A stretch of DNA of 64,000 nucleotides from a virus (taxonomy: Duplodnaviria > Caudoviricetes). A program made the translations under genes and the position numbers. The notes under the pieces were generated by a model. It did not search any database. It was not told the DNA's origin and was given only the letters and a program-made list of their open reading frames with translations. Where the stretch lies: positions 32,001 to 96,000 of IMG/VR virus record IMGVR_UViG_3300011678_000001. One strand, 5' to 3'. How positions within the stretch are numbered: position 1 is the stretch's first letter; each line of letters starts with the position of its first letter. Below, piece by piece: positions 56,393-58,877 of this stretch.

Positions 56393-56758
56393 TCATACTA
56401 TTTCCCCGAGGTAGTAGATGGTGTAGCCGTTATCGTCAGCCACCTCCCGGATAAAGTCTACAAACAGATGCCGGTGACAGAACTTACCCGCTTTACAGTA
56501 ACAGGCCACCGCCAATGGACCAGGTCTTTCTAGGAAGCCCTGAAAGTCCTCAGGAACGGCCCTGAGACGCTCTGTAAGCTTCGTTAAGTAGATCTCCGTA
56601 TATTGGTCGTCTGTGACTTCGCCGCGCTTGTAGGCGTACAGTACGTCTTTATACGGGGCAAAGGGTTCGAAGCCTGATTTGACGGTGATGTCAAACAACT
56701 CAATCCCTTCGGCCTTTGCTTTACGCCATTGAGGAATGGCGATGGTATATAGGTTCAT
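56393..56758 (-). CDS. DUF488-like protein
   Basis: DITVKSG...FAP....L..YK.G.....Y...Y, ACYC....FCHRHL; SD AAGGAGG. Confidence 0.65.
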   Translation of the reverse strand: MNLYTIAIPQWRKAKAEGIELFDITVKSGFEPFAPYKDVLYAYKRGEVTDDQYTEIYLTKLTERLRAVPEDFQGFLERPGPLAVACYCKAGKFCHRHLFVDFIREVADDNGYTIYYLGEIV

Positions 56759-56812
56759 CCCCACCTCCTTAGGCAGTCTATACACTAGGTCGACTTATTT
56801 CCAAATCACGGC

Positions 56813-57253
56813 AAAACAAAAAAGAAAATAATGTACATCCCCCAGTGATCAAACCCATGATAGAGTTGAATCACTGGAGGCTGCACATTGCGACGGGTTC
56901 AGCGAGGAGTGGCACCTAGACCGTCGAACGTCTTCTCGGGATAGCCGGCCCTTGACGACGTTGTTTCCGTGCTGCGATGCGGAGCAAGAGCATCGACACA
57001 TCATCGTTTACTGGCACGCACTGCTAGGTAGCGGTGGAAGCAGGGCGCCAGAACAAGCAACAACCTTGATTATCACGACGAGTTCATCAAGGGCAACGAA
57101 GAAGACCCAGGAGGCCGAAGCCTCCGTGGGTAGTGGGCGGTAACTACGTCATTGGGGGTGACTACCGCGCCGGCTGCGGAGGACAATCCGCGCTATCTAC
57201 GCAGTTAAGCGCATTCGGTTTCAGGCACCATGTTGTGAAAGAACAGGTCCTAC
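56813..57253 (-). ncRNA. candidate ~440-nt structured non-coding RNA
   Basis: No credible ORF; TATG at 57256-57253; nested stems whose plus-strand A-C mismatches become G-U on -; cUUCGg loop; terminal hairpin plus T-tract. Confidence 0.55.
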
Positions 57254-57292
57254 ATACTATACTGGTTTTTACTGCTAAAAATTGCAGGAGCA

Positions 57293-57313
57293 GGTGGGGA
57301 CCGAAATCCCCAC
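57293..57313 (-). terminator. hairpin after the head protein gene
   Basis: GTGGGGA-CCGAAA-TCCCCAC. Confidence 0.5.
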
Positions 57314-57319
57314 GTCTCG

Positions 57320-58828
57320 TCAGATGTCTAGCAGCGCACCCATTGCACGCAGGTTGGCATCGCCATCACGTACCGAGGCAGTCACCCAGGTCTGGTAATG
57401 ACGGGCCAGTACTTCACTAGCCTGTGGAGATACCATGGAGCTGTCGAAGGCGAAGTCATCGCTCAGACCAGCAGACAGCGCACTCTGACCGATGTCAGTC
57501 AACATGTCATGCTCACCGAGGAAGGTCATCAGGCTGTTGAGAATGTCTTTGACTTTCTCTTGGTCTTCACTGCGAACGGCCAGCGACTCGAACACAACAG
57601 GTTGATCCATCGATTCGGTCGAAGCTTTCTTGTCTTCGTCCTCTTCTTCGTCATCACTGCTGTCGGTATCGTTGTCAGTGGTTTCACTCGCATCGGCTGC
57701 ATCGACTTCAGCGGCGTCTACTTCGGCATCGCCGGAGTCATGCGCTGCATCAACCGCGGCAGCATCCGGTACGTCGTTAGCCGCGTCATCGACAGTGCCT
57801 TCGTCAGCTGTTTCACCAGCCTCGTCAGTCACCGCATCCAGATCATCAGCCGCTTCTACAACGTCCGCTTCTGCATCAACCAGAGCAGGTTCGCCACCTT
57901 CGGCTTCAACACCGGCATCATCCGCTACGGCATCAACCGTTGCATCGGTAGCTGCGTCGAGGTCGGTCTCATCCAGGTCGTCAGTGACGCCTTCATCGGT
58001 ACCGGACACTTCGACATCGGCATTGTCATCGGAGGTGATCGCATCAGCCACTTCATGTTGGATACTGGTCACGGTGGTTTCCGCATCCAATACAGCACCC
58101 GAAGCGTTTTCGCTGCGATGACGTTCGATAGCATCGCCCATCGGATCACTGCCGTCAGAACCCACGCTCTCGGCTTCGCTGCGTGCCGCTTCGGCTTGCT
58201 CGATTGCCGATTCGTGAGCCTTGTTCACCAGGGCTTCGATTCGCTCAACGGCGTCGGACATCTCGCCCAGCACTTGGGTTTCTTCCAAGGCTTCCATGGA
58301 GATACCAAGCGCTTCGAGGTTGCCTTCGACCCGCTTAGCCACCTGGATGACCATCGGACGGACCTGATCGACAGACAAGGCTTCCATAGAGAGGATTTGG
58401 CGAACCAGTTCGACGTTTTCACGATACAGGCCAACCACTTCGGCGGTGTACAGGGATTCTTGAGAAGCGGTTTCCGAATCACGGGTGGTGAACGGGACCG
58501 GCTCTTCCGATTCGGCCTTCTCCATCAATGATTGTTCGATGGCTTCGACTTCCGTCAGACGAGGCGTCAGAACGTCCTGCATGATCAGTTCGATCCGTGC
58601 CTGAGGCTCTTCAACGCCTTCGACCACTTGCAAATCGCCTTGGTGATCGGCTTCTTCCAACACGTTCTCAGTGAGCAGTTGGAAAGCAGTGGCCGTGTTG
58701 TCTTCGAGCGACGGATTAGCCAGCATAGCCTGACCGACAGCCATCAGCGATTCCAGACCGGTGCGGTAGTTCTGTGCTTCATGCAACAGGTCTGCAGCGC
58801 TGAGTTGCCCGGTAGATTTATGCGTCAT
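57320..58828 (-). CDS. acidic head/inner-body-type virion protein
   Basis: Many S/G-x-E motifs (GLES, PSLE, ASQE, LSME, ISME, ASTE); D/E/A-rich linker. Confidence 0.7.
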   Translation of the reverse strand: MTHKSTGQLSAADLLHEAQNYRTGLESLMAVGQAMLANPSLEDNTATAFQLLTENVLEEADHQGDLQVVEGVEEPQARIELIMQDVLTPRLTEVEAIEQSLMEKAESEEPVPFTTRDSETASQESLYTAEVVGLYRENVELVRQILSMEALSVDQVRPMVIQVAKRVEGNLEALGISMEALEETQVLGEMSDAVERIEALVNKAHESAIEQAEAARSEAESVGSDGSDPMGDAIERHRSENASGAVLDAETTVTSIQHEVADAITSDDNADVEVSGTDEGVTDDLDETDLDAATDATVDAVADDAGVEAEGGEPALVDAEADVVEAADDLDAVTDEAGETADEGTVDDAANDVPDAAAVDAAHDSGDAEVDAAEVDAADASETTDNDTDSSDDEEEDEDKKASTESMDQPVVFESLAVRSEDQEKVKDILNSLMTFLGEHDMLTDIGQSALSAGLSDDFAFDSSMVSPQASEVLARHYQTWVTASVRDGDANLRAMGALLDI

Positions 58829-58877
58829 CTTATGACCCTCTTAGTTTCATACTCCCGTTTTACAAGGAATATAGGAA

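What the first reader, a model, noticed from the sequence alone, without database searches (positions are those of the whole stretch)
56813..57256. Candidate ~440-nt multi-branched non-coding RNA
This is the largest gene-free gap in the window, bounded on - by an upstream terminator (57293-57313), a TATG start motif (57256-57253) and a long terminal hairpin (56830-56889) plus TTTTCTTTTTTG. Inside are long-range helices 57169-57175/56943-56949 and 57084-57094/56948-56958, which partly overlap and so may be alternatives or a junction. Local stems lie at 56891-56926, 56975-56995, 57011-57051, 57105-57131 (cUUCGg loop), 57137-57168 and 57176-57191. Several A-C mismatches on + become G-U pairs on -, fixing the strand. 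No tRNA, tmRNA or RNase P hallmark was recognised. Inference: an uncharacterised large structured phage RNA, upstream of a DUF488-like gene.
Basis: partly seen in the sequence, partly recalled or inferred. Interest (0 to 1): 0.75.

Follow-up and report, generated by a model that had tools for sequence, protein, structure and literature searches.

The report
New structured RNA of jumbo phages
A stretch of about 435 bases in a giant bacterial virus encodes a folded RNA rather than a protein; about 17 related giant phages keep it with matching base-pair changes, it fits no known RNA family, and its function is still unknown.

Summary
The finding holds up. Window 57253-56813 (minus strand) is a free-standing gene for a structured non-coding RNA of about 435 nt. 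It starts at a conserved GTATAGTATG motif, which contains the phiKZ-type late start signal TATG. It ends in a 60-nt hairpin followed by a U-tract.

I found 17 distinct homologs, one copy per genome. All are in 250-277 kb jumbo phages related to Pseudomonas phage pPa_SNUABM_DT01, where the region is unannotated. Each folds into the same string of about ten hairpins plus one three-way junction.

- Covariation is strong: 113 modelled base pairs are 93-98% paired, and 79 show compensatory double changes. Register-shifted controls give far fewer.
- Folding z-scores are -6.5 to -8.3.
- There is no conserved ORF, no Rfam match, and no tRNA or tmRNA.

Its two long-range helices are specific to this window and are not conserved. 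It missed three hairpins.

Function is inferred only. The most likely role is a trans-acting protein-binding scaffold or sponge made late in infection. Expression could not be tested.

Other first readers flagged look-alike stretches in two other genomes; those notes are unchecked. A second, purine-rich RNA with the identical start motif lies elsewhere in this genome.

The parts
57294..57313 (-). Hairpin (GUGGGGAUUUCGGUCCCCAC) after the stop codon of the upstream acidic gene. It probably marks the 3' end of that transcript.
   Evidence: Sequence. Present in the window, L005, L006, L018, L029 and L033. Absent in DT01 and the L007 group, where the start motif follows the stop codon directly.
57253..57262 (-). 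Start motif GTATAGTATG. TATG lies at 57256-57253 and the predicted +1 is G 57253.
   Evidence: TATAGTATG is identical in 16 of 17 homologs; L029 has TATAGTGTG. The 10-mer GTATAGTATG occurs only twice in the 269,790-bp genome. phiKZ late promoters are TATG with G as +1 (PMC4666361). The start site itself was not measured.
57222..57252 (-). H0: 5' hairpin of variable shape. The first ~18 nt (GUAGGACCUGUUCUUU) are nearly invariant.
   Evidence: Each of the 17 homologs folds into a 5' hairpin of a different shape. There is weak covariation in a mini-stem (GGA/UUC versus GAGC/GCUC). The structure is not settled.
57198..57213 (-). H1: invariant 5-bp hairpin UGCGC/GCGUA with a 6-nt loop (UURAYU).
   Evidence: Paired in 17 of 17 sequences but never varies, so covariation cannot test it.
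57173..57193 (-). H2 hairpin.
   Evidence: Forms in all 17 homologs folded separately. Six of 7 pairs show double changes (helix 2).
57135..57171 (-). H3: two-part hairpin with a C-rich apical loop (CACCCCCAA here; ACUCCCCCAU in most relatives).
   Evidence: helix 3: 8 of 9 pairs with double changes. The C-rich loop is missing in L029 and L033.
57105..57131 (-). H4: 11-bp hairpin with a cUUCGg tetraloop.
   Evidence: helix 4: 10 of 11 pairs with double changes. The loop varies among relatives (UUCG, AUUGC, GUAAC, ACAAU).
57004..57099 (-). Core three-way junction. The invariant helix UCGUU (57099-57095) / AACGA (57008-57004) encloses H5 and H6.
   Evidence: Predicted by RNAalifold and in 10 of 17 single-sequence folds. 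It never varies (helix 1), so it is unproven. An alternative pairing of the H5 loop UCGUCGU with ACGAUGR is equally compatible.
57064..57092 (-). H5: 7-bp stem carrying an invariant 15-nt loop, RAACUYRUCGUGAUA.
   Evidence: Sequence-only MAFFT alignment: 6 of 7 pairs show double changes and 99% of cells are paired (helix 2).
57011..57051 (-). H6: two-part hairpin with the conserved loop motif CGCUACC.
   Evidence: helices 4 and 5: 9 of 10 pairs show double changes. The loop motif is deleted in L003 and L004.
56976..57002 (-). H7: hairpin with inner GAGC/GCUC tip and the conserved UGCUCC.
   Evidence: helices 6 and 7: 5 of 9 pairs with double changes.
56927..56962 (-). H8: long hairpin whose loop carries CCGGCU. 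CCGG is present in 16 of 17 sequences.
   Evidence: helix 1: 11 of 11 pairs with double changes.
56891..56926 (-). H9: hairpin directly abutting H8. Its apical part is the near-invariant GGUGCCACUCCUC.
   Evidence: helices 2-4: 9 of 11 pairs with double changes.
56830..56889 (-). H10: 25-bp terminal hairpin. The lower stem is sequence-invariant (GCAGCCUCCAGUG / CACUGGGGGAUGY) and includes a conserved G-A mismatch and a U-G pair.
   Evidence: helices 5 and 6: 15 of 26 pairs with double changes, 8 never vary.
56813..56829 (-). U-rich tract (AUUUUCUUUUUUGUUUU). This is the probable 3' end of the RNA (intrinsic-terminator type).
   Evidence: Sequence. Most homologs have U-runs after H10, but L029 has a weak one. 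The 3' end was not measured.
56807..56815 (-). UUUGCCGUG, a T(A/T)TGCCGT motif. It is the probable start signal of the next transcript (DUF488) and is not part of the RNA.
   Evidence: Conserved in 16 of 17 homologs. It reads as a proper TATGCCG in L008, L029 and L035. Assigning it as a promoter is inference.
56393..56758 (-). Downstream gene: DUF488-N3a protein (121 aa), a homolog of PHIKZ151. It is a neighbour only.
   Evidence: Pfam PF22751, E 3.3e-6. tblastn matches 289 phage records, mostly phiKZ-like jumbo phages. PA1C is annotated 'similar to PHIKZ151'.

Best explanation
Window 57253-56813 (minus strand) is an independent gene for a structured non-coding RNA of about 435 nt. It belongs to a previously undescribed family restricted, as far as sampled, to pPa_SNUABM_DT01-like jumbo phages.

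Shown here: it is conserved as an RNA secondary structure. The structure is a string of about ten hairpins (H0-H10) with one three-way junction. These display invariant loop and bulge sequences:
- RAACUYRUCGUGAUA
- CGCUACC
- GUAAACGAUG
- UGCUCC
- CCGGCU
- GGUGCCACUCCUC
- the GCAGCCUCCAG/CUGGGGGAUG stem

Inferred: transcription starts at the G of the invariant TATG. By analogy with phiKZ, this would be done by the phage's non-virion RNA polymerase at late times. Transcription stops at the H10 hairpin and U-tract.

Inferred with least certainty: the RNA acts in trans as a stable scaffold or sponge whose invariant loops are docking sites for one or more proteins of the phage or host. It would not act as a messenger or as the leader of the next gene.

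My odds:
- real structured ncRNA gene of a new family: about 0.93
- independent transcription unit: about 0.75
- protein-binding scaffold or sponge as the mode of action: about 0.4
For: Conservation and distribution:
- There are 17 distinct homologs, in the same synteny and one per genome. All are in 250-277 kb phage contigs plus DT01.

Structure:
- Every homolog, folded on its own, gives the same series of hairpins despite different stem sequences.
- Core domain (sequence-only alignment): 97.8% of cells are paired. 20 of 33 pairs show double changes, against 3-7 when partners are slid by 1-3 columns. No shuffle out of 500 reaches the observed values.
- 5' domain: 92.9% paired, 24 of 32 pairs with double changes, against 8-13 in slid controls.
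- 3' domain: 93.4% paired, 35 of 48 pairs with double changes, against 9-20 in slid controls.
- Folding z-scores are -6.5, -8.3, -8.0 and -6.6 in four homologs. The antisense strand gives -3.4.

Not coding:
- No ORF is conserved in position or frame.
- Substitutions show no 3-base periodicity.

Independent unit:
- The TATG-containing start motif is invariant. It matches the phiKZ late promoter rule, TATG with +1 at G (PMC4666361).
- DT01 encodes phiKZ-like virion and non-virion RNA polymerases (PMC8541153).
- A hairpin plus U-tract lies at the 3' end, followed by a separate T(A/T)TGCCG motif ahead of the next gene.
- In L033 the next gene is a Kelch-repeat gene, not DUF488.

Scaffold reading:
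- Many unpaired nucleotides are invariant.
- The lower H10 stem is sequence-invariant, with a fixed G-A mismatch. A plain terminator would not need this.
- No extended complement to any conserved loop exists elsewhere in the phage genome.
Against: - No transcript has been observed, so start, end, abundance and timing are all inferred. No RNA run was usable.
- The 5' and 3' domain alignments were fitted to covariance models built from four close relatives, which inflates the percentage paired. The slid controls and the sequence-only core alignment offset this only in part.
- The 17 sequences represent roughly 8-9 independent lineages.
- H1 and the junction-closing helix never vary, so they are untested.
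- No partner protein is identified. Neighbouring genes give no hint: one is an acidic protein with no known family, the other is DUF488.
- Several U-tracts do not abut the hairpin, or are weak (DT01, L029). Read-through into the downstream genes, and hence a cis role, remains possible.
- Nothing excludes catalysis, self-assembly or base-pairing as the real mode of action.
Confidence: 0.55

Rival explanations
1. It is a cis-acting leader or attenuator. The RNA would be the long structured 5' part of an operon transcript (RNA, DUF488, DUF7941 virion protein). H10 plus the U-tract would be a regulated terminator. Its G-run (UGGGGGA) could instead pair with one of the other C-rich elements (H3 loop CUCCCCC, H7 GCUCC, H9 loop CUCCU), allowing read-through.
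For: - The RNA is on the same strand as the next genes and directly upstream of them.
- Four conserved C-rich segments could compete for the single G-run of H10.
- In L033 there is no clear separate start motif between the RNA and the next gene. In DT01 and L029 the U-tract is displaced or weak.
Against: - 435 nt and ten covarying hairpins are far more than any known attenuator needs.
- The downstream gene differs in L033.
- A conserved T(A/T)TGCCG start-like motif follows the U-tract in 16 of 17 homologs.
- DUF488 homologs in phiKZ-type phages have no such leader.
- The H3 C-rich loop is absent in L029 and L033 although H10 is unchanged.
- None of the alternative pairings shows covariation.
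Confidence: 0.15
2. It is a trans-acting base-pairing RNA. Its invariant CUCC-containing elements resemble the anti-Shine-Dalgarno sequence: H3 loop, H7, H9 loop CACUCCUC and H10 GCCUCCAG. They would bind purine-rich GGAG sites, either ribosome-binding sites of mRNAs or the co-occurring purine-rich RNA that has the identical start motif. This would modulate translation.
For: - There are three to four conserved CUCC elements, two of them in apical loops.
- A purine-rich, GGAG-rich RNA of about 220 nt with the same GTATAGTATG motif is conserved in the same phages.
Against: - Whole-molecule duplex energies between the two RNAs are no better than with shuffled partners.
- One specific 7-bp loop-loop pairing (H5 loop UCGUCGU with AUGACGA) is broken in DT01 with no compensating change.
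- No extended target for any conserved loop exists in the phage genome.
- By my own rough estimate from base composition, CUCC occurs about twice as often as expected in this C-rich RNA. This was not formally tested.
- Base-pairing regulators are usually much smaller.
Confidence: 0.12
3. It is a large RNA machine: a ribozyme, or an RNA that assembles with copies of itself as ROOL, GOLLD and OLE do. The invariant unpaired nucleotides would form a tertiary core or inter-molecular contacts, for example through the self-complementary CCGG in the H8 loop.
For: - Its size, many invariant unpaired positions and multi-helix architecture fit such RNAs.
- A GC-only palindrome (CCGG, GCCGGC or CGGCCG) sits in the H8 loop of 16 of 17 homologs.
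- Phage-associated ornate RNAs are known to form homo-oligomers (PMC12286853, seen).
Against: - The fold is mostly beads on a string, with only one supported junction and no proven pseudoknot.
- A 4-nt palindrome is weak evidence, and L005 lacks it.
- It matches no known ribozyme model.
- No substrate or cleavage site is evident.
Confidence: 0.1
4. It is a DNA-level element, such as a replication origin, packaging site or recombination site, rather than an RNA. Alternatively, it is a short protein-coding gene.
For: - The region is non-coding and lies next to a SNF2-type helicase gene cluster.
- Hairpins could also form in single-stranded DNA.
Against: - Pairing is strand-specific, with conserved G-U pairs that would be A-C on the other strand. 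The folding z-score is much stronger on one strand.
- A transcription start motif and a terminator frame the element.
- There is no turn in GC skew here and no repeats typical of origins.
- There is no conserved ORF and no codon periodicity.
Confidence: 0.04

Closest known systems
GOLLD and ROOL (large 'ornate' non-coding RNAs often carried by phages and prophages)
   Same: - It is a large non-coding RNA, over 400 nt.
- It is phage-borne and has many covarying helices and many invariant unpaired nucleotides.
- It is an independent gene of unknown function.
   Different: - It has no sequence or structure match to their Rfam models.
- It is smaller and more linear (hairpin string).
- It is not next to tRNA genes; there are none in the window.
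- It is found in phiKZ-related jumbo phages of Gram-negative hosts.
- Oligomerisation was not tested.
Protein-sponge RNAs of Pseudomonas (CrcZ, about 400 nt; RsmY/RsmZ) and 6S RNA
   Same: - It is a stand-alone, terminator-ended RNA.
- Repeated short motifs are displayed on a series of hairpins.
- Its size is similar to CrcZ (from my own knowledge).
   Different: - It has none of their defining motifs: A-rich CA motifs for Hfq/Crc, GGA loops for RsmA, or the 6S open-promoter-like bubble.
- It has no Rfam match.
- The repeated element here is CUCC, and its binder, if any, is unknown.
- It is encoded by the phage, not the host.
phi29 packaging RNA (pRNA)
   Same: - It is a phage-encoded structured RNA that acts in trans.
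- It lies in a region with virion and structural genes.
- It has loops that could pair between molecules.
   Different: - pRNA is about 170 nt and is defined by two mutually complementary loops and a three-way junction that binds the connector.
- There is no model match here.
- Jumbo phages use terminase-driven packaging with no known RNA requirement (from my own knowledge).
- Virion association was not tested.
phiKZ late transcription units (TATG promoters read by the non-virion RNA polymerase) and the non-coding RNAs reported for phiKZ
   Same: - It has the same kind of start signal, with TATG immediately at the start (PMC4666361).
- The phage lineage encodes both phiKZ-type RNA polymerases (PMC8541153).
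- phiKZ is reported to express non-coding RNAs (PMC13282480).
   Different: - This RNA is absent from the one phiKZ-type genome I scanned, PA1C. The syntenic site upstream of the PHIKZ151 homolog holds no gap in PA1C or PA7.
- No described phiKZ RNA of this size or structure was found in the literature searches.

Membership tests
Any Rfam 15 family (including RNase P RNA, tmRNA, 6S, SRP RNA, group I/II introns, GOLLD, ROOL, OLE, HEARO, raiA, pRNA, riboswitches) | Match to the family covariance model at or near its gathering score | tested here: not met
   The whole window at gathering threshold gives 0 matches. The region at E up to 10 gives only chance-level hits of 16 bits or less, far below threshold. 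Seven homolog loci at E up to 1 give one irrelevant miRNA hit on the antisense of H10.
tRNA / tmRNA | Cloverleaf or tRNA-like domain with tag reading frame | tested here: not met
   ARAGORN finds none in the whole window.
RNase P RNA | Conserved P4 pseudoknot with the CR-I (GGAAAGUCC-type) and CR-V (ACAGAA..CCGGCUUA-type) sequences | tested here: not met
   No Rfam RNase P model matches. Only a CCGGCU hexamer in the H8 hairpin loop is reminiscent of CR-V. No CR-I-like sequence is present in the alignment. The consensus sequences are from my own knowledge.
Independent ncRNA gene of a phiKZ-like phage (late transcription unit) | TATG start motif immediately at the 5' end | tested here: met
   TATG lies at 57256-57253 within GTATAGTATG, and TATAGTATG is identical in 16 of 17 homologs. 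The rule comes from PMC4666361. Use of the site in vivo is not testable here.
Independent ncRNA gene of a phiKZ-like phage (late transcription unit) | Own 3' end signal separating it from the next gene | tested here: inconclusive
   All homologs have the long H10 hairpin, and most have a U-run. In DT01 the U-run lies 6-7 nt from the stem, and in L029 it is weak. The real 3' end was not measured.
Independent ncRNA gene of a phiKZ-like phage (late transcription unit) | A discrete transcript of the predicted size | not testable with these tools
   No RNA holder was listed. The two runs labelled RNA-Seq were judged probably DNA and gave only short contigs.
Cis-regulatory leader / riboswitch | Constant association with the regulated downstream gene | tested here: not met
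   In L033 a Kelch-repeat gene follows the RNA instead of DUF488. DUF488 homologs in PA1C, PA7 and more distant phages lack the RNA.
Cis-regulatory leader / riboswitch | Mutually exclusive terminator and anti-terminator pairings supported by covariation | tested here: inconclusive
   C-rich segments could pair with the H10 G-run, but all partners are invariant, so nothing can be tested.
Conserved structured RNA (general criterion) | Compensatory base changes significantly above controls | tested here: met
   79 of 113 pairs show double changes. Slid controls give 3-7 of 33, 8-13 of 32 and 9-20 of 48. For the percentage of cells paired and the number of pairs with double changes, no shuffle out of 500 reaches the observed value.
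ROOL/GOLLD-like self-assembling RNA | Homo-oligomer formation through inter-molecular contacts | not testable with these tools
   The only hint is a CCGG-type palindrome in the H8 loop of 16 of 17 homologs.

The most novel reading that the evidence does not exclude
The RNA is not a passive regulator but a large RNA machine. It would be made in the phage nucleus by the phage's own polymerase. It would be either a ribozyme or an RNA that assembles with copies of itself (through the CCGG loop of H8) or with the co-occurring purine-rich RNA into a higher-order particle. If so, it would be the first RNA-based structural or catalytic component of a nucleus-forming-type jumbo phage.
Probability: 0.12. 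Interest if true: 0.9.

Novelty: new variant of a known kind. Interest (0 to 1): 0.68.

Why it matters
New classes of large bacterial or phage non-coding RNAs with strong covariation support are rare. Those solved so far have turned out to be ribozymes, ribonucleoprotein cores or self-assembling RNA cages.

This one sits in a lineage related to phiKZ, which transcribes its genome with its own polymerases (PMC8541153) and, in phiKZ itself, inside a protein-walled compartment (PMC12809450). How RNA behaves and is sorted in such infections is an open question.

The family has a cultured member: Pseudomonas phage pPa_SNUABM_DT01 on P. aeruginosa. The RNA can therefore be tested directly for expression, location, partners and deletion phenotype.

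The same phages carry at least one more conserved RNA with the identical start motif, and possibly a third large one. This lineage may therefore rely on a set of structured RNAs that genome annotation has missed entirely; the DT01 record shows no feature here.

Tried and rejected
- **RNA expression data.** No RNA holder was listed. Two wastewater runs labelled RNA-Seq hold small shares, the tool judged them probably DNA, and they gave only short contigs. One is a 396-nt contig of an L029-type homolog. Nothing can be said about expression.
- **Sigma-70 promoter and simple terminator scan.** It found nothing relevant, because the H10 loop is too long for the pattern.
- **Aligning single hairpins with MAFFT to get sequence-only structural alignments for H2, H3, H4, H8 and H9.** MAFFT aligned on loop motifs and the stems were misaligned, so these calls were not used. 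I replaced them with covariance-model-guided alignments.
- **Pairing of the 5' end with the H9 apical loop.** A first 9-sequence alifold suggested it. The divergent homologs L003, L029 and L033 do not uphold it, and 17-sequence folds do not reproduce it.
They are window-specific.
- **Pseudoknot between the H5 loop UCGUCGU and ACGAUGR.** It is 98% pairable but shows only wobble-compatible single changes. Shuffles and a +3 slide do as well, so it is unresolved.
- **Interaction with the purine-rich RNA.** Duplex energy is no better than with shuffles. The best loop-loop candidate is broken in DT01.
- **Targets of the conserved loops in the phage genome.** None were found beyond the locus itself.
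- **Replication origin.** There is no GC-skew turn here.
- **Small ORF.** No position or frame is conserved and there is no periodicity.
- **Homologs in bacterial genomes.** The motif scan gave four hits in metagenome-assembled genomes. All are chance matches with no similarity beyond the pattern. L032 and L034 from metagenomes are likewise chance matches.
- **More distant phages.** Core model R1 finds nothing in ten other phage records, including PA1C and complete jumbo phage contigs of 214-278 kb.
- **GenBank phages.** Only DT01 was found by BLAST.
- **Neighbouring proteins.** The acidic 502-aa protein has no Pfam or PHROG family and is unrelated to the UvsX-like protein at the syntenic site of PA1C. 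DUF488 has no informative solved relative or literature.
Full report
**Locus.** The window is bases 32,001-96,000 of a 269,790-bp IMG/VR phage record. Two minus-strand genes flank a 561-nt stretch with no credible ORF. One is a 502-aa acidic protein with no known family (57320-58828). The other is a 121-aa DUF488-N3a protein (56393-56758). Read on the minus strand, the stretch contains, in order:
- a hairpin just after the upstream stop codon (57313-57294)
- the sequence GTATAGTATG (57262-57253)
- about 420 nt of G+C-rich sequence
- a 60-nt hairpin (56889-56830)
- a U-rich run
- UUUGCCGUG
- the ribosome-binding site of the DUF488 gene

**Is it more than chance?** As RNA, the minus strand folds to -171 kcal/mol, 6.5 standard deviations below dinucleotide shuffles. 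The plus strand gives only -3.4. Three homologs give -8.3, -8.0 and -6.6. Rfam 15 has no match for the window, for the region at permissive thresholds, or for seven homolog loci. ARAGORN finds no tRNA or tmRNA.

**Relatives.** BLAST against 50,697 GenBank phage records finds only Pseudomonas phage pPa_SNUABM_DT01. Its syntenic gap (MW735835 262,299-262,813) carries no annotation. I searched IMG/VR with the DUF488 protein and scanned viral, metagenome and genome collections with a conserved motif. This gave 17 distinct full-length homologs plus several partial or duplicate copies. All are on phage contigs; the complete ones are 250-277 kb. Matches in bacterial MAGs and two metagenome contigs are chance hits. 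Each phage has one copy. A covariance model of the core finds nothing in ten more distant jumbo phage records, including PA1C. The downstream DUF488 gene is the homolog of PHIKZ151 and is widespread in phiKZ-like phages. In PA1C and PA7 it is preceded by a gene, not a gap. The RNA is therefore an innovation of the DT01-like lineage, not a companion of DUF488. In L033 a Kelch-repeat gene has been inserted between the RNA and DUF488, while the RNA stays next to the acidic gene.

**Structure.** I cut each homolog at invariant sequence anchors and folded each piece on its own. All 17 gave the same architecture although the stems differ in sequence:
- a variable 5' hairpin (H0)
- an invariant small hairpin (H1)
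- three consecutive hairpins (H2; H3 with a C-rich loop; H4, often with a UUCG loop)
- a junction in which UCGUU and AACGA enclose H5 and H6. H5 is a 7-bp stem with an invariant 15-nt loop, and H6 has the loop motif CGCUACC.
- H7, then H8 (loop CCGGCU) abutting H9 (apical GGUGCCACUCCUC)
- the long H10

Window coordinates of each helix are given under parts.

**Covariation.** I counted pairs in three blocks.

| Block | Alignment | Cells paired | Pairs with double changes | Slid controls (1-3 columns) |
|---|---|---|---|---|
| Core | plain MAFFT, not fitted to any structure | 97.8% | 20 of 33 | 3-7 |
| 5' domain | guided by a covariance model built from four close relatives | 92.9% | 24 of 32 | 8-13 |
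| 3' domain | guided by a covariance model built from four close relatives | 93.4% | 35 of 48 | 9-20 |

For the percentage of cells paired and the number of pairs with double changes, no shuffle out of 500 reached the observed value in any block. The fitted alignments lean towards the model, and the sequences are related (roughly 8-9 lineages), so these numbers are not probabilities. Even so, the signal is large, is present in every variable helix, and is confirmed in the unfitted block. H1 and the junction-closing helix never vary and remain unproven. A possible pseudoknot between the H5 loop and ACGAUGR is compatible with all sequences but equally untestable. Conserved G-U pairs fix the strand.

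**Not a protein.** ORFs in the region differ in position, frame and strand among homologs. Substitutions show no three-base periodicity. Indels fall in stems and loops without regard to frame.

Its seven local stems, the TATG, the terminal hairpin, the strand and the 'no known family' statement are all confirmed. Its two long-range helices are not.
- The pairing 57084-57094/56948-56958 exists only in this window. It competes with H5, which is the helix supported by six compensatory pairs.
- The pairing of AGCCGGC with the H8 loop is 7 bp here but degenerates to 3-5 bp in shifting register elsewhere. It was not recovered in a scan of all column pairs.
- It missed H1, H5 and H8.

**Transcription unit (inferred).** DT01 encodes phiKZ-type virion and non-virion RNA polymerases (PMC8541153). 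phiKZ late promoters consist of TATG with the G as the first transcribed base, plus ill-defined downstream sequence (PMC4666361). TATAGTATG and the next 18 nt are almost invariant, which fits such a promoter. The full 10-mer GTATAGTATG occurs only twice in this genome. After the H10 hairpin and U-run, 16 of 17 homologs carry T(A/T)TGCCGT, which is a proper TATGCCG in three of them. I read this as the start signal of the next transcript, in line with a 'hairpin plus TATGYYG' pattern that other first readers noted across this genome. The picture is terminator, TATG, RNA, terminator, TATG, DUF488. No RNA data were available to test it.

**How it may work.** The features that need explaining are threefold:
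- the many invariant unpaired nucleotides
- a terminal stem whose sequence, G-A mismatch and U-G pair never change
- three to four CUCC-containing elements (H3 loop, H7, H9 loop, H10)

I found no extended complement to any conserved loop in the phage genome, no origin-like skew, and no link to a particular downstream gene. The best-supported reading is therefore a stable trans-acting RNA whose hairpins present fixed docking sites, most simply for proteins. That would make it a scaffold or sponge. I give that mode about 0.4.

The rivals are:
- a cis-acting attenuator using competition of the C-rich segments for the H10 G-run (0.15)
- a base-pairing regulator with anti-Shine-Dalgarno-like loops (0.12)
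- a ribozyme or self-assembling RNA (0.10)
- a DNA-level element or a short coding gene (0.04)

**Comparison with known systems.** In kind it is closest to the large phage-associated RNAs GOLLD and ROOL, which form homo-oligomers (PMC12286853). In layout it is closest to hairpin-array sponge RNAs such as CrcZ. It is a member of none of these: all model-based membership tests failed and the defining motifs are absent. Literature searches found no description of such an RNA in jumbo phages. A 2026 review mentions only that phiKZ expresses non-coding RNAs.

**Seen in passing.**
- The only other GTATAGTATG in the genome (233,735, minus strand, outside the window) heads a transcript-like unit of about 220 nt that is 67% purine, with a covarying hairpin and a terminal hairpin. 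It is conserved in DT01 and at least five other relatives and matches no Rfam family.
- A 955-nt gene-poor gap at 101,353-102,307, flagged by another reader as an 870-nt RNA, is also conserved in relatives.
- Other first readers flagged look-alikes of the present RNA in two other genomes. Those notes are unchecked, and I did not use them as evidence.

**Verdict.** This is a real, well-supported new family of large structured phage RNA. Its function is open, and it can be tested directly in a cultured phage.

Noticed in passing
Outside the window: genome 233,735 to about 233,515, minus strand (L045:2491-2736, minus strand): A second candidate non-coding RNA of about 220 nt starts at the only other GTATAGTATG in the genome. 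It is 67% purine and rich in GGA/GGAG. It has one covarying hairpin (AGAUUAAU/AUUAAUCU, with U to C matched by A to G) and a terminal GUGAGGCGAAGCCUCAC hairpin. It is conserved in DT01 (MW735835 119,627-119,828) and at least five other relatives and has no Rfam match.
   Followed up: partly
It is 78-79% identical over 650-900 nt in two relatives, and short islands are conserved in DT01 and another phage. Structure was not analysed.
   Followed up: partly
L033:827-3226 (RCUJ01000006.1): In this relative two Kelch-repeat genes flank the DUF488 gene. One is inserted between the RNA and DUF488, with no obvious start motif of its own.
   Followed up: partly
window 56807-56815 (minus strand) and the same place in homologs: T(A/T)TGCCGT directly follows the RNA's U-tract in 16 of 17 homologs (TATGCCG in L008, L029 and L035). 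It looks like the start signal of the DUF488 transcript and fits a genome-wide hairpin-plus-TATGYYG pattern reported by other readers.
   Followed up: partly
window 56779-56783 and 58870-58874; genome-wide list: TATAG lies 5-25 nt upstream of several start codons (DUF488, the SNF2-type helicase and others). 51 of the 118 genomic TATAG sites fall in the roughly 16% of the genome left non-coding by a crude gene map. It may be a further promoter element or only AT-rich spacer composition.
   Followed up: partly
window 57320-58828 (minus strand): The upstream 502-aa protein has a long Asp/Glu/Ala-rich low-complexity middle part and no Pfam or PHROG family. It is always the gene immediately upstream of the RNA, and it is not related to the UvsX-like protein at the corresponding site of PA1C.
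   Followed up: partly
window 57051-57100 (run X6, contig of 396 nt): A wastewater run labelled METAGENOMIC RNA-Seq holds a 396-nt contig of an L029-type homolog of the RNA at depth 15. The tool rates the run as probably DNA, so this says nothing about expression.
   Followed up: no
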